Assembly: GCA_951813855.1 (NCBI GenBank)
Contig: OX638380.1
Span: 201,060-265,059 of the forward strand
DNA from: an uncultured Verrucomicrobiae bacterium
GTDB lineage: Bacteria > Verrucomicrobiota > Verrucomicrobiia > Limisphaerales > AAA164-E04
Direction: 5' to 3'
DNA: 64,000 bases
The notes under the pieces are model-generated. The model had not been told where the DNA came from. It searched no databases and saw only the letters and a program-made list of their open reading frames with translations. A program made the position numbers and the translations under genes. Below are positions 2,341-11,802 of the stretch, piece after piece (positions within the stretch are counted from its first letter, which is position 1; every line of letters begins with the position of its first letter).

Positions 2341-5300
2341 TCAGGCTACCCAGCATGTCGAGAGCAGTTCGGCCTGTTGCAGGACGGTCAGCATGGCGGC
2401 GTTCTGAAGGTCCGGAGGATAGCCGTGTTCTCCGAGGATACGCTTGACCAGAACCCGCATCCGAGCCCTCGCCGGCTCGCGGTGCTGCCGGTCCACGGAA
2501 GCCTTGCTCTTGAGGCTGTTCAGCAACTCATGAGCGATGACGCGAAGGTGGTCGTTGCCCATCACCTCTACCGCGCTTTCGTTCTGGGCCAATGCGTCGT
2601 AGAAGGCGATCTCCTCTTGGCTGAGGCCTTCTTCCTCGCCGCGCTGGTGGGCGGCGAGGATGTCCTTGGCGAGCCCAATCAGCTCCTGAAGGACCTCCGC
2701 CGTCGTGACGGCATTGTTGTGGTAGCGGGCGATTGCCTCCTCCAGCCTCTTTGAGAATTCGCGGGTCTGCACGACGTTGACTCGGCTTCGCGATCGAAGC
2801 TCGCCGTTGATGAGCTTGCACAGCGCCTCCAAGGCGAGGTTCTTCTTCTCCATTTCCTGGATCTCGGCGAGGAACTCGTCGGAAAGGATGGAGATGTCCG
2901 GCGTATCCAGCCCCGTGGCTTCGAGAATGTCGACGATTTCGGTTGAGACGATGGCGCGGCTGACGATCTGCTGCACGGCCAAATCTCGTTCGGTGGAGGA
3001 CTTGCCGGCACCCGGCACGCTCTTGGCAAGCGCCGCGCGAACGGTTTGGAAGAAGCCCACCTCATCGCGAATGTCGCGCGCCTTGTCGCTGGCGGCAGCG
3101 AGCGCGAACGCTTTGGAGAGCGCGAGCACGGCGTCGTTAAAGCGGCGATGAGTGCGTTTCTTGGCCTCTTTGGTTAATTCCCTGGCCGCCTCTCTTTGCT
3201 GGATCGCCAAGATCCACTCGATGGCGCCGGCGAGCGCTACGAGTCGTTCCTGCGGTGATCCGACAAGGCCCTTGCGGTAGTCGAAGCCATGGAACATGGC
3301 GCTCACGATCTCGTATTTCTCCAGCATCATCGCGACGGCCTTGGCTTCGTCGATATCGGCGTGTCTCCGATCGTCGCGGGAATACTGGCCAAGGGCTGAT
3401 TTTAGATTCTGCGCGATGCCGATGTAGTCTACGATCAGTCCGCCAGGCTTGTCGCGGAATACGCGGTTGACGCGGGCGATGGCCTGCATGAGCCCGTGCC
3501 CCCGCATGTGCTTGTCGACGTACATCGTGTGCAGGCTCGGCGCATCGAATCCGGTAAGCCACATGTCCCTCACGATCACCAGCTTGAGCGCATCGTCCGG
3601 ATCCTTGATCCGCTTGGCGAGTAATTCGCGGCGCGACTTGCCGCCGATGTGCCGTTGCCATTGCTTCGGGTCCGACGCGGTTCCGGTCATGACGATCTTG
3701 AGGATGCCGCTTTCGTCGTCGTCACTGTTCCAGTCCGGGCGTATCCGGATTATCTCGTTGTAGGGCGCGACGCAGAACCAACGGCTCATGCTGACAATCA
3801 TGGCCTTGCCGTCCATGCCGACCACGCGGTTCTCGAAATGCTCGATCAAATCTCGCGCAACCAGACGCAAGCGCTTCTCGGTGCCGACGACGGCCTCGAC
3901 GTTGGCCAATCTGCGCTTGATCCGTTCCTGCTCGCCTTCAACGTCCTCCTCGATCAGCTCCGCGATCTCGTCATCGAGCGCCGGTTTCTCATTCTCATCG
4001 AGCTCGATGCGGGCGAGGCGGCTCTCGTAGTAGATCGGTACCGTCGCGCCGTCCTCGACCCCTCGGCTGATGTCGTAAACGTCAATGTATTCGCCGAACA
4101 CGGCCGGTGTATTCGCGTCCTCCTTTTCGATCGGCGTACCGGTGAAACCGATGAAGGAGGCGTTCGGCAGGGCGTCGCGAAGGTACTTGGCGAAGCCGTA
4201 AGAAATTTCGCCGGTTTTGTGCGCCACCTTGGCACGGAAACCGTACTGGCTGCGGTGCGCCTCATCGGCGATCACGACTACATTCCGGCGGTCGGTGAGT
4301 GCTGGATAGTCAGTTTTACCGTTTTCGGGTGCGAACTTTTGGAGGGTGATGAACACGACGACGCCGGAAGGGCGGGTTAGGATCCGCCGTAGATCCTCGC
4401 GGCTCTCAGCCTGCTGCGGGGTTTGGCGGAGCAGGTCGCGACACATCGAAAACGTGCCGAACAACTGGTTGTCGAGGTCGTTACGATCGGTGAGGACGAC
4501 GACGGTCGGGTTCTCCATTGTGGGGTGGGTGATGATCTGTCCGGCGTAGAACGCCATGAGCAGGCTCTTGCCTGATCCTTGGGTATGCCAGATGACGCCG
4601 ATGCGGCGGTCGCCCTCCGGTTGATCGTTAAAGGTGGTGAAGCCATAGCGGGATGGGGCTTCGCGCATTCCCTCTCCGTGGCCCGGCCTGGCTTGCTGAG
4701 CCTTCGGGAGTGCTCGCAGCGTCGATCGAACAGCCCGCCGCACGGCGTGAAACTGATGGTAGCCGGCGATAATCTTGACGATGCCGGAACCTGTGTCGCC
4801 TAAGACGGTGAAGTCCCGGATCAAGGTCAGAAACCGGTTCCTCTCCAAGACGCCCTTGACGACGGTTTCGAGTTCCGGCGCGCCTTTCGGGGCAATGGTG
4901 GAGGAGTCCATGGTACGCCAAGGCATAAACCGTTCGAGATTGGCCGTTAGCGAGCCGAGGCGCGCTTGCATCCCGTCCGACGTCAAGAGCGCGGCGTTGG
5001 TTCGGAACAGGGAAAGTATCTCGTTCTTGTAGGTTTGGAGCTGGTTGAACGCCCCTTCGAGGGTGGAGTTTTCGTCGCTTGGGTTCTTCAGTTCGATCAC
5101 GGCCAGAGGTAAGCCGTTGATGAACAGCACCACGTCGGGTCGGCGATTCTTCTTATGCTCGATCACCGTGAACTGGTTCACCGCGAGCCAATCGTTGGTG
5201 TCCGCATGGTCGAAGTTGATCAGCCTGGCGACATCGTCGCCGATGCTGCCGTCCTTTCGGACAATCTCGACGGGCACGCCCTCGATCAAGTAGCGGTGCA

Positions 5301-5565
5301 GGCGGCAGTTCTCCTCGATGAGCGAGGGTGTTTCTGACTGACTTACCTTGCGCAACACCTCCTCCAGCACCTCGCCGGGTAGGTGTGGGTTGAAGCGTGC
5401 GAGCGCCTTGCGGAGCCGCTCTGTCAGGAGTACTTCATCGTGGCTGTCGCGCTCCGGTGCCGGACCCTCCGGGCCGATGTCTGGTCCGTAAAGCACGGCA
5501 TAGTCCAGCCCGTCAAGCCATACGAGGGCGGCGTCTTCCACCTCGTTTTCGGTGAGTTTGGCCAT
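2341..5565 (-). CDS. hsdR: Type I restriction endonuclease subunit R
   Basis: Likely start [10 protein letters not shown] at 5565. Nuclease motif [19 protein letters not shown], Walker [13 protein letters not shown] box and QAIARVNR are present; about 1074 aa. Confidence 0.95.
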
Positions 5566-5652
5566 CAGGCGGTCGTGCGGCTCGACCCCAGCACGAACCT
5601 CGCTCGTTCGCGGCGGAGCATCTCGTAAGAGCTCATGCAGCGCAGGCCGAAG
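5463..5652. repeat. Direct repeat copy A (3' end of DUF4411 gene + 5' end of hsdR)
   Basis: Aligns by eye with 7239-7431, e.g. shared CTCGCTCGTTCGCGGCGGAGCATCTCGTAAG. Confidence 0.9.
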
Positions 5653-6071
5653 TCGATACAGGCGTTCGGAATCTTGATCTTTTTGATGGTGTTGGCCGGG
5701 GTCTCTTGCGTGACAACGATGCACTCGTGAGCCAGCGCGTGCGCGACAAGCGAGTGATCAGCAGCCTTCATAAAGGTGGCGACGGCAGTCGGCTGGTATC
5801 CTTTGTCGTTCGCCCAATCGCTCACGATGCTACGCTTTAGCAACACGGTGTCATCCATTGGCAAAAAGAAATCGCTGCCCCGCGCTGCGGCCCACTCCGC
5901 CAGCTCGTCGTCTCCGTCTTGCAGTTCGTCGGCGACCTTTTCGATGCTCGCGACCTTGCCAACCCCGTTCTGCTCAACCAACCAATCCCAGAAGGCGGGG
6001 CAGAAATCGAAACCGTAGTGCAGATTCTTGGCCTGAATGAAGACATCCGAATCGATAAGATAAGTGTTCAT
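5565..6071 (-). CDS. DUF4411 family PIN-domain protein
   Basis: [31 protein letters not shown]…ADHSLVAHA…IVVTQE…KIKIPNAC. Start overlaps the stop of the upstream peptidase gene (ATGA). Confidence 0.85.
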
Positions 6072-7222
6072 CTCATGACCCCGGCTTCGCGTCCGAGATT
6101 GTTGAAGGCTTTGGTACTCCTGACACCCAACATCCGAAACGCATCCCGATAGAGCGTCTGCCCTTCGAGCGTGCTCCCGACCAGCGCACGCACGAACCGG
6201 CGTCCGACCCGCGCGACCGTCGTGCGGTAGAAGTCGCCGCCGGCGGCGCCCGCCTGGACAAGTTTCCGCAGACGCTGGTTCTCCTGAGCCCAAGCGGTAT
6301 CGAAGCGCTCGCGAGTTAGCCAGCCCGCATCGAGCAGGCGTCGCAGGATGACCAACTTGCTGACTTTGAAGGTACGCGACAGTCGAGACAGCACGTCCGG
6401 GAGCGATTCCTTCCGGCGCAGTTCGAATCGCAGTGCTTCCAGCGGCACCAGAAGCTCCGCCGCCACCGCGTTGCACCACACCTCCTCGCGTCGGAAACCC
6501 ATTTCCGGCGCGGTCCCGAGGTTCGACAAGGCCGTAGCGCCAAGCCAGATATGCGCCAACTCGTGGGCGAGCGTGAACATCAGCGCCGCTTTCGTGTCCT
6601 GTCCGTTGACGAAGATCAGCGGGGCGTGCGGATCGCAAAGCGCGAATCCGCGAAACTCGGCGGGATCAAGACGGCGGCTGGTGTTGCTCATCACGATACC
6701 GCTCACCATGACAAGAATACCGGATTCGTCGGCTTGGCGGATAAACTGCCGCAGCGCATCGTTCCAGGTCGAACACTTCCGACGGGCGATCAGATCGAAA
6801 CCCAAGGTCTCTCGGATTTGCGCAGCGACAGTTTCAGGGGCTGCCTCGACAGAGACGCTACCGACGAAGTCGAGCTCCGGTTCGCCGACGGCACGGGCGA
6901 AGTCCTGATACCAGCCCTGCCGTTCCTGGCAGGCGTAGATCATGTCCAACAGGTTGGGGCTGAGCCGCGTAACCTTATGACCGGCGAAAGTGCGGAAATC
7001 TGGTATGGGAACGGCTTCCTCCGGCGGACCCGAGAGGAACAGATAGCCGACCGGCACGTGGACGGCGCGAGCGAACGCTTCCAACTGCTTCAAGGTGGGC
7101 TTGACCTCGCCGCTTTCCCAGTCAGGCAGCTTCTTGAACTTCAAGGTGAGGTCTGCTTGCTCGACCCCGGCGCGTTCGCGCGCCCAACGCAGAAGCTCGG
7201 GATTGATGGGGGCGCGGATCAT
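6068..7222 (-). CDS. XRE-type HTH fused to ImmA/IrrE (peptidase M78) metallo-endopeptidase
   Basis: INPELLRWARERAG…WESGEVKPTLKQL is the HTH. FTLAHELAH is the HExxH motif, followed by EVWCNAVAAELLVP. Confidence 0.92.
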   Translation of the reverse strand: MIRAPINPELLRWARERAGVEQADLTLKFKKLPDWESGEVKPTLKQLEAFARAVHVPVGYLFLSGPPEEAVPIPDFRTFAGHKVTRLSPNLLDMIYACQERQGWYQDFARAVGEPELDFVGSVSVEAAPETVAAQIRETLGFDLIARRKCSTWNDALRQFIRQADESGILVMVSGIVMSNTSRRLDPAEFRGFALCDPHAPLIFVNGQDTKAALMFTLAHELAHIWLGATALSNLGTAPEMGFRREEVWCNAVAAELLVPLEALRFELRRKESLPDVLSRLSRTFKVSKLVILRRLLDAGWLTRERFDTAWAQENQRLRKLVQAGAAGGDFYRTTVARVGRRFVRALVGSTLEGQTLYRDAFRMLGVRSTKAFNNLGREAGVMR

Positions 7223-7238
7223 GGCCACTTGAGCGTTA

Positions 7239-7431
7239 GGCCGTTCGGTCCGATAACCGGTCCGTGCTTCACGGTACAGCCTAGTCCATCGAGCCATACG
7301 AGAGCGGCGTTTTCCACCACGTTTTCGGTGAATCTGGCCATCATGCGGTCGTACGGATCGACCCCAGCACGAATCTCGCTCGTTCGCGGCGGAGCATCTC
7401 GTAAGGGCTCATGCGTCGAACGCAGGCGAAG
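7239..7431. repeat. Direct repeat copy B, containing a stub of hsdR ([21 protein letters not shown])
   Basis: Diverged copy of 5463-5652; its translation parallels [21 protein letters not shown]. Confidence 0.9.
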
Positions 7432-7544
7432 AGGACAGGCGCTTTTGGCCTGGGAAGTCGCACGCCAACCAGTGGCAAGGCCACGATGTGCTCTCCCTTT
7501 TCCAAGAGACCATGCGGTGAATAGGGATTGGCTACTAACGCGGC

Positions 7545-8069
7545 TCATTCAATCCTTTCCGTCCAAAAGAACTGCACTTCCAGCGTTCGAAGCATGACGT
7601 ACGTGTTTTGCCAAGGGACTTTGAACTTGTCGCAAACATCCGGCAGTTTCACCCTCCTCTTTGACTCTGGTGCAGGCTGTTCGTTCGTTACAACGGTTGC
7701 GCCGCACACCTGTTCGCAGGCAACGAGCCAACCGTCTGCGCCTGTCGCGAAATTCTCTTTTGCATGGTCTGAGTCGTTTGGATGGCTTTGAATCCAGTTT
7801 ATAATATCCGTGCGGACGCGCACCACATTATCGGGGGCCACTTTGAGGAAGAATTCATCCGGAACTTCGTTTTTCACCCACCGAACAAGTTCCTCGGTGC
7901 TACGACCGGCAAGCAGTTCGTTGCACACTGGGTCGCCGCTGAAGATCTAGCCCTGCCGATGATGGTGCAACAGACATTTCCAGAAACCGGGGTAAATGTC
8001 GAACGCGTAGTAGAGATTCTTCGCGGTAATGAGAACGTGGGAGTCCACGAAATAGAACTGATCCGTTAT
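7545..8069 (-). pseudogene. Second DUF4411 PIN-domain gene, disrupted
   Basis: Reads TDQFYFVDSHVLITAKNLYYAFDIYPGFW…HRQG*IFSG…GADGWLVA…VVTNE…RVKLPDVC. There is an in-frame TAG near 7949 and ATA where the ATG is expected. Confidence 0.85.
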
Positions 8070-8621
8070 TGGGAGAGTCTCATGCCCAATCGCTCGGCGT
8101 ACTTCTGGAACGTTCCACCCCGGAGGCCTGTTAGTTCATGGGCTTCCCTGAATCCGATTTGCCCCTCCATCGCCGCTCTGATCACATGGGTCGCAAAGAG
8201 TTGGCCTACATGTGCGTTCTGGGTGTTGTAGAATTCGGTTCTAGACGGTTCCGCGCCGCTCAGGCGTTCTTGGCTGACGTAGTGCTCATATAATTCGATA
8301 AAGGCGCTGCGGTCAACGAGCCTGAGGTCCAAGGCTCGACGGGCAGCGACCACGGGGCTCACCTTGAACGAGTGCCCAAGGGCCTCGAAGGGGCGCTGCT
8401 TCCGCCTCACATGCAACCAGCGTTTTCGAAGTTCGCTCGACGGCACGAGAAATTCCGCTACCGCCCGGTTGCACCATTCTTCTACTTTCGTGCCTCCGGG
8501 AAGAAGATGGTCGAAACCGGAAAGCCCCCCCACCGAGCCAGATGTGCGCCAGTTCGTGAGCCATCGTGAACATCTGGGCGGCTTTTGCATCCATGCCGTT
8601 CACGAAAATCAGGGGCGAGTA
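8066..8621 (-). pseudogene. Second ImmA/IrrE peptidase gene, 5'-truncated by ISAs1 and frameshifted
   Basis: [28 protein letters not shown] is in one frame and [14 protein letters not shown] in another. The shift is at or near the C7 run around 8525-8531. Confidence 0.88.
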
Positions 8622-10785
8622 CAGGACTTTTTCATGCTAATAATTTTTGATCGACGATCGTTTTTTTAAGTGTCGAGCGGAGTATTTCGATTCGTCGGAA
8701 AAACTGTTTTTCCGAATTATGCTTCGAGTTAGGCGGCGATTGCCGATTGAGACGAGTTTCAGCCGGACAGGAGACTAAACCGGTGCGAGTATCGGTCGAA
8801 CGATCAATTCGCCGACCGAATCAGCAAGGAGGAAGCGTCGGTAATCAGGAAGGTCGGGTCAGTTTTTTTTCGGACGTTTAAACGGGGTGGTTTTCGTGAC
8901 GGCTCGCAACCCTTGGTTCCGATTCGTCTGAAAATCGTCGGTAGCTTCGGCCATATTAGAGTATTCCGACTGGAGAATGATCGCCAAGGCCAGGTTGTTG
9001 AAGAGGGCATTGTTCGTCGGCCCATGGCGAGTTCGCATGAGACAATCATCTTCGCCGAAAATCCCGTCGCGACGGCGGTGATTGCCGTTTTCTACCGTCC
9101 CATGTCCCCGATTGAGTGACAACAATCGTTGAGCGTCGGCAGCTTCCGGAGGCAACGAAGTGACGCCGTAAGCATATTCCACGGTCTCGGGCCCACCGTT
9201 CAAATGATGACGGTGTCGAAGGATCCGAAAGACTTGGAGGACATGCGGTAATTTGACGGCTCCGGGAAGGGGTTCATAGGTTTGAATGCTCCGTTGATCG
9301 ATGCGGCCATGTCCTTTCTCCGGGTTTTCGGTGAACCGGTCCTGGGCCACTCGATCCCAATCCAGGCTGGTCAAAAATTGAGAGAGTTCGGGGTTGTTCT
9401 CTTTGACCGTGAAGAGAAAATGGGCTCCGTTAACCAGCACGATGGCATCGGCCATGACTCGGTTAGTATGGAGCGCATCGATCGTAATGATGGCTCCCCG
9501 GATATCGACATCCTCCAAGAGAGCCGCCATCGCCGCCTGTTCGCCGCCTTGGTCTCGGCAACTGCGAACGGCGATGGGCACCGCATCTTGATGGCGCACG
9601 AGGATGACGGTCTCGAAATGGTCTTTGCTGTTGCGATTAGCTCCGTTGATCCGCTTCCCGTCAGCAGCCAAGGCTTCCAAGGGTTGTCGAGTCAATTGGG
9701 CCGTTACCCAGCGGTGAGTTACCGTTTGCAACGCTTCCGGATCCGTCTCGGTCATGACCCGGTGAATCGTCGCGAGAGACGGGGCTACGTAACGGTCCTT
9801 GGCGTTGCGCCACGCCCCGAGAGTCTGCAATTGGTTTGGCGTCATTTTTTGGGCGTAACGCGAAGTCGCCAAGGGGCCGACCTTGCCGGCCAATCGAGCT
9901 AAGATGCAGCTAGCGAGGACCATTTCCAGCCGATGTTTGCGTCCTTGGGCTCGGCGAAAATCAGCCATTTCCGCTAGCAGTTGCACCAATGATTTCAACT
10001 GTTTCGGGGACGTTTCTACCCGCTGCACCTGGGGGCCCCAAGACGGATCGTCCTGACGCTTCCTTAATCGGGAACAGGCTTGGGGTCGCAAGGGATAAAC
10101 GTACCTTTCCTTCTTGATATTGTGCCGGGCGGTATAGCGTCCGTTGCTGCGAGCGTAGCCTTGCGATTGCCCTGCCGCCCGCCAATTCCCCGCGCGATAG
10201 ATCGTGCCCGCGAAGTGTCGGGGATCGACGAAAGTTTCGGCCAATTCCAGCGGATGACCCCAGGTCCGTTGCCAATCGGCACTCAAACGGCGCAGCATTT
10301 TGGCCATGACGCAGCTCCCCAGATTGTGCACTTCGCCCCGCTCGGTAAGCAGGAGGAATCGGGTATTGTTGGCAATCAAATGCAGCCGACGAAACTGCTC
10401 TCGTTTTTTCCACCCGAGCCACTTGTCTCGCGGGCGACACTTGAACACTCCGCTTTGCCAGCCGGCTAACGCCAACCACCGGCCTCGGTACTCGGCAACA
10501 TAACGCAGACCGCGTCCGGCAAAGCCTTTGAAACCCAAGCGATGGTTCTGATCCATCAGCGAATCCCAGCGTCTTCGCTCACTGCTCTTCACCAATCGAA
10601 CGGTCACCAGCTTGAGGTTGATTTTGGTGTCCCTGAGGAACCCATAACGACCGGAGAGTGAAAAAGCCAGCTTTATTTTCCCATTTCGAAGGCGCTGAAG
10701 TTTCGGCTCTCTGGTGAAGGGAAAAAGCGAATATGGCCCGAAATCGGTGATACGGGCCTCTAGCGATTAGCGTGAAAAAACCCTG
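8622..10785 (-). mobile_element. ISAs1-family insertion sequence, copy 1 (no target duplication)
   Basis: Imperfect IRs CAGGACTTTTTCATGCTAAT / ATTAGCGTGAAAAAACCCTG. Near-identical to 57474-59638. Confidence 0.93.
8859..10607 (-). CDS. ISAs1 transposase with N-terminal DUF4338 domain, probably impaired
   Basis: [20 protein letters not shown] and EKGHGRID motifs. The ATG of copy 2 is AGG here, and HWTVEN reads HGTVEN. Confidence 0.85.
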
Positions 10786-11802
10786 CTCGGTGGACATGGA
10801 GCTGTTGACGAGAACCACGCCCGCCGTGCCGTTCGGAGCCAAGTGGTGGTGAATGTGCTGGAGCCAAGCGTAGTTGGCGTTGTCCACAGGAGGCGCACCG
10901 AATATCCAACGCGCATCCTCTCGCAGCCGGTTGCCGCCCCAATCCGAAACGTTGAACGGTGGATTGGCCAGAATGTAGTTGGCCTTGAGGTCCGAAAGCT
11001 CGATCTTGTGGAAACTACCCTCGTTGTTCCATCGAATATCGGCGTCAATTCCGCGTACCGCGAGGTTCATCTTGGCGAGGCGCCAAGTCGTGTAGTTACT
11101 CTCCTGGCCGTAGATGGCGAAGTCTCCAATGCGACCGCCGTGTTCCTCGACGAACTTCTCGGATTGGACGAACATGCCGCCAGAGCCACAGCACGGGTCA
11201 TAGACGCGTCCCTTGTAGGGTTCCAGCATCTCGACCAGCAGACGGACGATAGACCGGGGGGTGTAGAACTCACCGCCTCGCTTGCCCTCGGCCCCGGCGA
11301 AGCCTCCGAGAAAATACTCGTACACCCGCCCAAGTATGTCGCGGGAGCGGTCGGCCTTCTCGGCCATGCCAATTCCGCTCACCAAGTTGATCAGCTCCCC
11401 AAGCATGATCTTGTCGAGTGCCGGGCAGACATAGTTCTTGGGGATGATACCCTTTAGCGAGGGATTTTTGGCCTCGATGGCCCGCATGGCGTTGTCAATG
11501 TCCTTGCCGATAGACGACTGTTTGGCCTTGCCTTGCAAACGAGACCAGCGTGCTGCCTTGGGAACCCAGAAGACATTCTCGGCGAGGTACTCTTCAGGGG
11601 CTTCTGCATCGGCCAGATCGTCCTTGAGCAATTCTGCCCGCTTGGCTTCGAAGGCGTCCGAGATGTACTTGAGGAAGATCAGTCCGAGGGCAACATGCTT
11701 GTAGTCGGAGGGTTCCATGTTGCCGCGTAGCTTGTCTGCCACGGTCCATAGCTGGGCTTCGAACCCGAGATTGGCTCCGTTGTTCTTCGCCTTTTTTGCC
11801 AT
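10786..11802 (-). pseudogene. hsdM: Type I R-M methyltransferase subunit M, 3'-truncated by ISAs1
   Basis: [27 protein letters not shown] and ANPPFN motifs. The frame runs into the IS end after [12 protein letters not shown]. Confidence 0.93.

What the first reader, a model, noticed from the sequence alone, without database searches (positions are those of the whole stretch)
5565..8621. HTH-ImmA/IrrE peptidase + DUF4411 PIN cassette embedded, twice, inside a type I R-M operon
Seen: the order is hsdM - [peptidase2, PIN2] - [HTH-peptidase1, PIN1] - hsdR on one strand, with overlapping stop/start codons (6068-6071; 5565). The two cassettes are strongly diverged, so they are not a recent duplication. 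Known: ImmA/IrrE/CapP-type M78 peptidases are stress- or ssDNA-activated switches, HTH-M78 fusions serve as antitoxins (RosmerTA), PIN domains are RNases, and PrrC occupies this slot in other type I loci as a backup. Inference: a protease-gated PIN toxin acting as an abortive-infection or guard layer coupled to R-M, in a variable cargo slot.
Basis: partly seen in the sequence, partly recalled or inferred. Interest (0 to 1): 0.7.

Follow-up and report, generated by a model that had tools for sequence, protein, structure and literature searches.

The report
Toxin pair in broken restriction operon
One intact gene pair, likely a DNA-damage-triggered toxin and its antitoxin like a recently solved system from the tuberculosis bacterium, sits in a known cargo slot of a restriction-enzyme operon that a jumping gene has broken here, and the second pair is a broken relic, so this is a decaying example of a known kind.

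Summary
Partly confirmed. Cassette 1 (7222-5565) has open frames and both overlaps are real. It is a homologue of M. tuberculosis VapBC52 (PDB 9VZY; PMC13273310), an HTH-M78 antitoxin that self-cleaves on ssDNA and frees a DUF4411 PIN tRNase. FR site, HEXXH and PIN acidic residues are kept; the switch cysteine is serine clade-wide. 'Twice' is misleading. Cassette 2 is a pseudogene (5' half missing, frameshift, in-frame TAG), an ISAs1-type element cuts hsdM at codon 339, and hsdS is absent, so no working R-M remains. The R-M link is real in relatives: 33 of 56 well-flanked close homologues lie between hsdM/S and hsdR. Family-wide, 7 of 54 loci are near hsdM against 4 of 150 ordinary PIN genes. 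The pair rides with eight hsdR lineages and shares the slot with Kiwa, SIR2, Schlafen and Abi genes, so it behaves as swappable cargo, not a dedicated guard. Toxin-antitoxin modules in this slot are published (DarTG2). The scan saw this pair before on other DNA. Whether PIN1 is still active here is open.

The parts
10786..11802 (-). hsdM, first 339 codons only, cut by the IS
   Evidence: 85% identical to residues 1-338 of 518-aa relatives
8621..10785 (-). ISAs1-type insertion sequence (DruA-like + DDE transposase ORF 10607-8859) without target-site duplication
   Evidence: 28 of the other 33 full-length copies have a 9-12 bp duplication, this one has none
8066..8620 (-). peptidase 2 remnant: 3' half only, frameshift in G7 run 8525-8531 just after HELAH
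   Evidence: 66-87% identical to the intact stand-alone paralogue at G000:1191200; seen in X7 contig
7545..8069 (-). PIN2 (DUF4411) pseudogene: no usual start codon, in-frame TAG at 7949-7947
   Evidence: TAG in X1 and X3 contigs
7241..7441 (-). relic of an earlier PIN 3' end plus about 34 codons of hsdR; 82% direct repeat of 5470-5664
6068..7222 (-). HTH-M78 peptidase 1 (384 aa), VapB52-like antitoxin: F76-R77, H220-E221-H224, E247; Ser233 at the switch-cysteine position
5565..6071 (-). PIN1 (DUF4411, 168 aa), VapC52-like; D7, E49, D105, E123 kept, 8 of 66 near-invariant positions changed
2341..5565 (-). hsdR (1074 aa), open frame, orphan of its hsdM and hsdS
   Evidence: 27 of 503 near-invariant positions changed

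Best explanation
Cassette 1 is a homologue of the VapBC52 toxin-antitoxin pair that sits in the hsdS-hsdR cargo slot of a type I restriction operon, and it likely works as a DNA-damage switch in which the antitoxin cuts itself and frees a tRNA-cutting toxin. SHOWN: homology of both proteins to 9VZY; FR site, zinc ligands and PIN acidic residues kept; enrichment of relatives in this slot; in this genome the operon is broken and cassette 2 is a pseudogene. PREDICTED: one peptidase wraps a PIN dimer with its N-terminal HTH and C-terminal helices. INFERRED from VapBC52 and CapP: ssDNA from phage replication or DNA breaks activates the peptidase, it cleaves at F76-R77, the PIN dimer is released and cuts tRNA, and the infected cell stalls. 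INFERRED: the tie to R-M is shared transcription and shared mobility, not a physical guard; here two IS copies recombined (or one deleted adjacent DNA), removing the hsdM 3' end, hsdS and the 5' half of peptidase 2. The family-level mechanism is about 0.65 likely; that this copy's PIN is still active is about 0.4.
For: Top PDB hits are 9VZY_A for the peptidase (E 1.4e-23, residues 8-348) and 9VZY_D/9VZZ_A for the PIN (E 3e-8; E 1.5e-30 over all 157 profile positions, with D7 on the D6 mutated in 9VZZ). The paper names these entries as VapBC52. R77 is in 192 of 193 homologues and F76 in 143 of 149 at 50% identity or more; H220, E221, H224 are each in 192 of 193 and E247 in 193 of 193. The complex model (1 peptidase, 2 PIN, Zn) scores 0.85 against a best control of 0.02, runs agree in at least 96% of contacts, partner pLDDT at least 90; the mark was reached by 51 of 78 solved and 2 of 108 mismatched pairs. 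Contacts fall in residues 2-114 and 345-382, as in VapBC52's two interfaces, but the pass may come from likeness to a solved complex. Context: 33 of 56 genome loci and 15 of 29 metagenome loci with full flanks lie between hsdM/S and hsdR. The hsdS stop overlaps the peptidase start in 22 of 49 loci with hsdS upstream, and hsdR starts within 70 bp of the PIN end in 33 of 80. Cargo behaviour: 8 hsdR lineages; peptidase-hsdR identity correlation 0.38 against 0.83 for hsdM-hsdR in 23 loci; other slot genes carry KwaB, Abi_C, SIR2, Schlafen, AAA_13, PIN and Fic domains.
Against: The switch cysteine of VapB52 (C229) aligns to Ser233, and serine is there in 146 of 149 close homologues, so auto-inhibition must differ and ssDNA gating is not tested. 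No toxicity, cleavage or phage assay exists for this clade. In the VapBC52 paper protection from phage D29 came from the toxin expressed alone; co-expression with the antitoxin did not protect. PIN1 departs from 8 of 66 near-invariant columns (relatives' median 1.5%; 1 of 129 is as high), and contigs of X5 and X7 join a repeat end to position 5687 inside PIN1 (side only 30 letters). No sigma-70-like promoter was found between the IS and peptidase 1. The Foldseek search gave no match at E 0.001 or better (best: CapP 7T5T, E 1.3e-3) and 9VZY did not appear among the listed rows.
Confidence: 0.7

Rival explanations
1. This copy is no longer functional: cassette 1 is an early pseudogene decaying with the rest of the operon. 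This concerns the state of the copy, not the identity of the family.
For: hsdM (12 of 210, highest of 45 sequences), hsdR (27 of 503) and PIN1 (8 of 66) all show excess changes at near-invariant positions. Six of PIN1's 8 changes lie in the predicted antitoxin interface (19 of 66 columns; P=0.006, noticed after the fact). A repeat end joins inside PIN1 in 2 of 4 runs. The IS separates the cassette from the hsdM promoter region. Two other copies in this genome are broken.
Against: Both frames are open and the four PIN acidic residues are kept. The peptidase is as conserved as its relatives at near-invariant columns (2 of 154). A codon test against 8 relatives did not single out PIN1 (pN/pS 0.10, relatives 0.00-0.21) or hsdR (0.11, relatives 0.06-0.27), and gave the peptidase the highest value (0.30), so the decay signal is mixed.
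Confidence: 0.5
2. A selfish addiction module that hitch-hikes on and stabilises R-M islands, with no anti-phage role of its own.
For: Patchy spread (11 of 301, 23 of 401, 13 of 251 and 11 of 201 genomes in four phyla); near-identical copies across phyla; many decayed copies; the intact VapBC52 pair did not protect against D29.
Against: It is enriched next to hsdM over ordinary PIN genes in the same genomes (7 of 54 against 4 of 150, Fisher P=0.009, loci not independent). Its slot neighbours carry defence-type domains. An ssDNA-sensing peptidase is more than addiction needs.
Confidence: 0.2
3. A PrrC-like guard: the module monitors the HsdRMS complex and fires when a phage inhibitor disables restriction.
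For: Same slot as PrrC and DarTG2; translational coupling on both sides; 59% embedding in the close clade; some co-divergence with hsdR.
Against: 47 of 54 family-drawn loci have no hsdM within 10 kb (contigs are often short). Embedded and free copies are interleaved on the tree (15 changes). The pair pairs with hsdR lineages under 55% identical to each other. Payne et al. describe PrrC as almost exclusively embedded, which this is not.
Confidence: 0.08
4. The HTH-peptidase is mainly a transcriptional controller of hsdR (fused CapH-CapP or C-protein-like), with the PIN secondary.
For: The VapB52 N-terminal domain resembles C.Csp231I; a vapC plus CapH-CapP fusion was noted in one DISARM locus; hsdR is coupled to the PIN stop.
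Against: In 22 of 49 loci there is no intergenic space for an operator; no shared upstream motif was evident by eye; the HTH is predicted to bind the PIN, and is needed for toxin binding in VapBC52.
Confidence: 0.07

Closest known systems
VapBC52 of Mycobacterium tuberculosis (PDB 9VZY, 9VZZ; PMC13273310)
   Same: HTH-M78 peptidase-C-terminal helices antitoxin of about 390 aa upstream of a DUF4411 PIN; FR motif at the same place; HEXXH plus third zinc ligand; predicted 1:2 complex with N- and C-terminal interfaces.
   Different: Serine instead of the switch cysteine; distant sequence relationship; lies in a type I R-M slot; activity of this copy unknown.
HTH-DUF955/COG2856 + DUF4411.1 three-component TA prediction (PMC5499597; PMC2701414)
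   Same: Identical gene pair and order; the 2017 paper also reports PIN TA modules in type I R-M operons in general.
   Different: In the passages I read they do not count DUF4411 in R-M operons; their Figure S7 could not be seen.
DarTG2 in the EPEC RRDM island and other type I-embedded modules (PMC12255303; bioRxiv 2024.01.29.577857); PrrC (mechanism recalled)
   Same: A toxin module between hsdS and hsdR on the same strand; the site is called a potential recombination hotspot for defence systems.
   Different: Different toxins; PrrC is almost only embedded, whereas this family is mostly free-standing.
CapP/CapH and IrrE/DdrO (bioRxiv 2022.04.27.489752; 2026.05.16.725639)
   Same: M78 peptidase fold; Phe-Arg cleavage site; ssDNA activation. 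67% of CBASS CapP and IrrE lack the cysteine switch, so its absence has precedent.
   Different: They cut a separate repressor and have a GAF domain; here HTH and peptidase are fused and the output is a bound toxin.
RosmerTA (RmrA) and spr1629
   Same: HTH-M78 fusion antitoxin; PADLOC RmrA E 1e-16.
   Different: PIN1 hits no PADLOC model; spr1629 scores 25.7 bits against a cut-off of 335.

Membership tests
HTH-DUF955 + DUF4411.1 TA family (VapBC52 type) | HTH fused to M78 peptidase, directly upstream of DUF4411 | tested here: met
   (M78 E 5e-13; HTH_31 weak, E 0.0075; DUF4411 E 8e-51)
HTH-DUF955 + DUF4411.1 TA family (VapBC52 type) | HEXXH and third zinc ligand | tested here: met
   H220, E221, H224, E247
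HTH-DUF955 + DUF4411.1 TA family (VapBC52 type) | FR motif after the N-terminal HTH | tested here: met
   F76-R77 aligned to VapB52 FR
HTH-DUF955 + DUF4411.1 TA family (VapBC52 type) | PIN acidic active-site residues | tested here: met
   D7, E49, D105, E123 invariant in 11 sequences and in 127-129 of 129; neighbours N9, Y106, H122 are changed
VapBC52 (the characterised system) | cysteine switch on the zinc | tested here: not met
   Ser233; 146 of 149 close homologues and 120 of 120 closest proteins have Ser; 5 of 44 distant ones have Cys in that column
VapBC52 (the characterised system) | 1:2 complex with N- and C-terminal interfaces | tested here: inconclusive
   model passes, 0.85 against 0.02, but the stoichiometry was imposed and a like complex is solved
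VapBC52 (the characterised system) | ssDNA-triggered self-cleavage; tRNA cleavage; toxicity | not testable with these tools
   needs bench work
functional type I R-M system | complete hsdM, hsdS and hsdR | tested here: not met
   hsdM cut at codon 339, no hsdS; the genome's other type I locus is only 51% (R) and 62% (M) identical
PrrC-like guard of type I R-M | near-obligate embedding in type I operons | tested here: not met
   7 of 54 family-drawn loci near hsdM; 33 of 56 in the close clade
PrrC-like guard of type I R-M | physical association with HsdRMS | not tested
RosmerTA | RmrA antitoxin with an RmrT toxin | tested here: not met
   weak RmrA hits only; PIN1 and PIN2 hit no PADLOC model

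The most novel reading that the evidence does not exclude
A serine-switch clade of VapBC52-type modules, wired by overlapping codons into type I hsd operons, is a restriction-coupled relay: ssDNA made after HsdR cuts or stalls on invading or unmethylated DNA triggers antitoxin self-cleavage and frees a tRNase, turning failed or excessive restriction into growth arrest. The slot is refilled by recombination at conserved hsdS 3' and hsdR 5' ends, which leaves the stubs seen here and in relatives.
Probability: 0.2. Interest if true: 0.65.

Novelty: new member of a known kind. Interest (0 to 1): 0.3.

Why it matters
As found, it is a decaying local example. It extends a toxin-antitoxin type solved in one pathogen to a large environmental family (at least 8000 homologues) and shows that one clade favours the hsdS-hsdR slot. 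If the relay reading held, it would give a direct, testable link between restriction damage and abortive infection, and show how an M78 peptidase is gated without the cysteine switch. Intact relatives, not this locus, are the ones to test.

Tried and rejected
Two working cassettes: rejected. Assembly error behind the breaks: rejected for the TAG, the G7 frameshift and both IS junctions. Missing hsdM 3' end moved elsewhere by IS rearrangement: not found, and no other full IS copy carries a matching flank. The hsdS-peptidase relic at G000:808.6-810.1 kb as the lost half of cassette 2: not supported (47% to the paralogue that peptidase 2 matches at 66-87%). X1 joint 10786-8622 is not an empty site, because it runs IS end to IS start; X3 joint 6257-8626 (side 21) was set aside because other X3 contigs span it. 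Strain variation in cassette 1 was not resolved beyond. The codon pN/pS test did not confirm selective decay of PIN1. The promoter scan was at chance level, 3 found against 2.1 expected. Foldseek gave no significant match. The tree is FastTree only, with 42 of 132 rows unlabelled for short flanks or partial context. Left out of the family-wide count: three centre genomes chosen by similarity, G000, two sub-cut-off hits and one 23-residue fragment; the PIN control used the 150 listed of 320 matches; one of the 7 hsdM matches is below the Pfam cut-off. Literature searches found no paper on DUF4411 pairs in type I operons; supplements of Payne et al. and Figure S7 of PMC5499597 were not seen and may list it.
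Full report
OBSERVATION. On the minus strand the window reads: hsdM 5' part (11802-10786), an insertion sequence (10785-8621), a peptidase fragment (8620-8066), PIN2 (about 8069-7545), a short relic (7441-7241), HTH-peptidase 1 (7222-6068), PIN1 (6071-5565) and hsdR (5565-2341). Only cassette 1 has open frames. Peptidase 2 starts at the IS end, lacks its HTH half and shifts frame in a G7 run; PIN2 has no usual start codon and an in-frame TAG. hsdM ends at codon 339 of about 518, its 3' part is not elsewhere in the 4.89-Mb genome, and the operon has no hsdS. The IS lacks the 9-12 bp target duplication that 28 of the other 33 full copies have, which fits a deletion (inference). Contigs of four public runs from two studies show the same TAG, frameshift and junctions (the best holder may be the source sample).

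WHAT CASSETTE 1 IS. Both proteins have their best solved relative in one complex: 9VZY_A for the peptidase (E 1.4e-23) and 9VZY_D/9VZZ_A for the PIN (E 3e-8 alone, 1.5e-30 by profile). These are M. tuberculosis VapBC52. In PMC13273310 (I read the abstract, Results parts 1-2 of 5, the phage section, the Discussion and data availability; no supplements) the antitoxin binds a PIN dimer 1:2 through N- and C-terminal domains, self-cleaves on ssDNA near an FR motif, and the toxin cuts tRNAs; the toxin alone, not the pair, protected M. smegmatis from phage D29. The window's peptidase keeps F76-R77, H220-E221-H224 and E247; PIN1 keeps D7, E49, D105 and E123. A 1:2 model scores 0.85 against 0.02 for the best control, with contacts from both ends of the peptidase; the mark was reached by 51 of 78 solved and 2 of 108 mismatched pairs, and the pass may reflect likeness to a solved complex. 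One feature fails: the switch cysteine is serine here and in 146 of 149 homologues at 50% identity or more. This has precedent, since IrrE and two thirds of CBASS CapP lack the switch (passages of bioRxiv 2022.04.27.489752 and 2026.05.16.725639). The gene pair itself was predicted as a toxin-antitoxin type in PMC2701414 and PMC5499597 (passages).

THE LINK TO RESTRICTION. Among the 80 closest loci in one-genome-per-species data, 56 have full flanks; 33 lie between hsdM/S and hsdR, 5 have hsd genes on one side and 18 have none. In metagenomes the figures are 15, 1 and 13 of 29, not dereplicated. These sets were chosen by similarity to the window and tested with its own hsd genes, so they describe one clade. 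A family-drawn sample from four phyla gives 7 of 54 loci within 10 kb of an HsdM_N match, against 4 of 150 ordinary PIN genes in the same 51 genomes and about 0.8% by chance; many contigs are short, so these are lower bounds, and loci are not independent. The coupling is tight where present: the hsdS stop overlaps the peptidase start in 22 of 49 loci. But the pair occurs with eight hsdR lineages, embedded and free copies alternate on the tree (15 changes against 30 for shuffles), and within the main lineage it tracks hsdR far less than hsdM does (0.38 against 0.83). The same slot holds KwaB, Abi_C, SIR2, Schlafen, AAA_13, PIN and Fic genes in relatives (13 of 19 proteins scanned for this; the rest gave other or no families). 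Toxin modules in this slot are in print: DarTG2 between hsdS and hsdR (PMC12255303, passages) and thousands of genes embedded in type I, BREX and DISARM systems (bioRxiv 2024.01.29.577857, passages). Two earlier notes of this scan mention the same kind of pair as cargo in another restriction-like operon and in a prophage (not checked).

STATE OF THIS COPY. At near-invariant columns hsdM (12 of 210), hsdR (27 of 503) and PIN1 (8 of 66) depart more than nearly all relatives, while the peptidase does not (2 of 154). A codon test did not confirm this contrast. Contigs of X5 and X7 join a repeat end to 5687 inside PIN1. HsdR cannot cut without its M and S subunits (established knowledge), and the genome's other type I locus is only 51-62% identical. 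So restriction is likely dead here, and PIN1's activity is uncertain (about 0.4).

MECHANISM. Most likely, in intact members: the peptidase holds the PIN dimer shut; ssDNA from phage replication or broken DNA activates it; it cuts itself at Phe-Arg; the PIN cuts tRNA and the cell stalls. Homology, motifs and context are shown; binding is predicted; trigger, cleavage, target and defence role are inferred from VapBC52 and CapP. R-M supplies a promoter and a vehicle, and possibly the ssDNA, an idea already raised for CapP. A PrrC-like guard is unlikely because embedding is optional.

VERDICT. A new member of a known kind, in a broken locus; 'twice' is one open cassette plus relics, and no fetched locus has two full cassettes. 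What my searches did not find in print is the strong preference of this serine-switch clade for type I operons; unseen supplements may hold it. Interest 0.3; the restriction-to-tRNase relay is about 0.2 likely and would merit 0.65.

Noticed in passing
window 7241-7441; L131, L136, L152, L199: Duplicated hsdR 5' stubs (up to three in L199; with a PIN 3' end in L131 as here) sit in the slot in 4 of 80 genome loci, with more downstream in L135, and in none of 90 other loci. hsdS 3'-end-like sequence also precedes the peptidase where hsdS is not adjacent (L125, L128, L152, L156, L178). This suggests cargo is stacked by recombination at conserved hsd ends.
   Followed up: partly
window 5565-6071: PIN1's changes cluster at residues 78-80 and 101-107 and at 9 and 122, mostly in the predicted antitoxin interface, while the facing antitoxin residues are unchanged. 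Unexplained.
   Followed up: partly
G000:C1 1191200-1192860 (L001); 4192215-4193523 (L002); 808600-810100 (L004): Three more copies in this genome: one with open frames and no hsd gene nearby, one broken, and one broken peptidase start directly behind a broken hsdS.
   Followed up: partly
L003 5809-14445: The genome's other type I operon has an HsdS fused to a nucleotidyltransferase domain and a Schlafen/AlbA_2-HATPase gene in the hsdS-hsdR slot.
   Followed up: no
window 8859-10607: The ISAs1-type transposase carries an N-terminal DruA-like domain; 34 full-length copies were counted in the genome.
   Followed up: partly
window 10786-11802: The hsdM remnant varies between runs: a 12-bp insertion in X1 and a 1-bp deletion in X5, as expected of a pseudogene.
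   Followed up: no
L255 4437-14521: A same-genus genome (G302) has hsdM-hsdS-[trypsin-like protease, DUF3644]-hsdR with only a 35-codon trace of the peptidase.
   Followed up: no
L103, L237: The cassette also occupies other gaps of type I operons: hsdM-[pair]-hsdS and hsdR-[pair]-hsdM.
   Followed up: no
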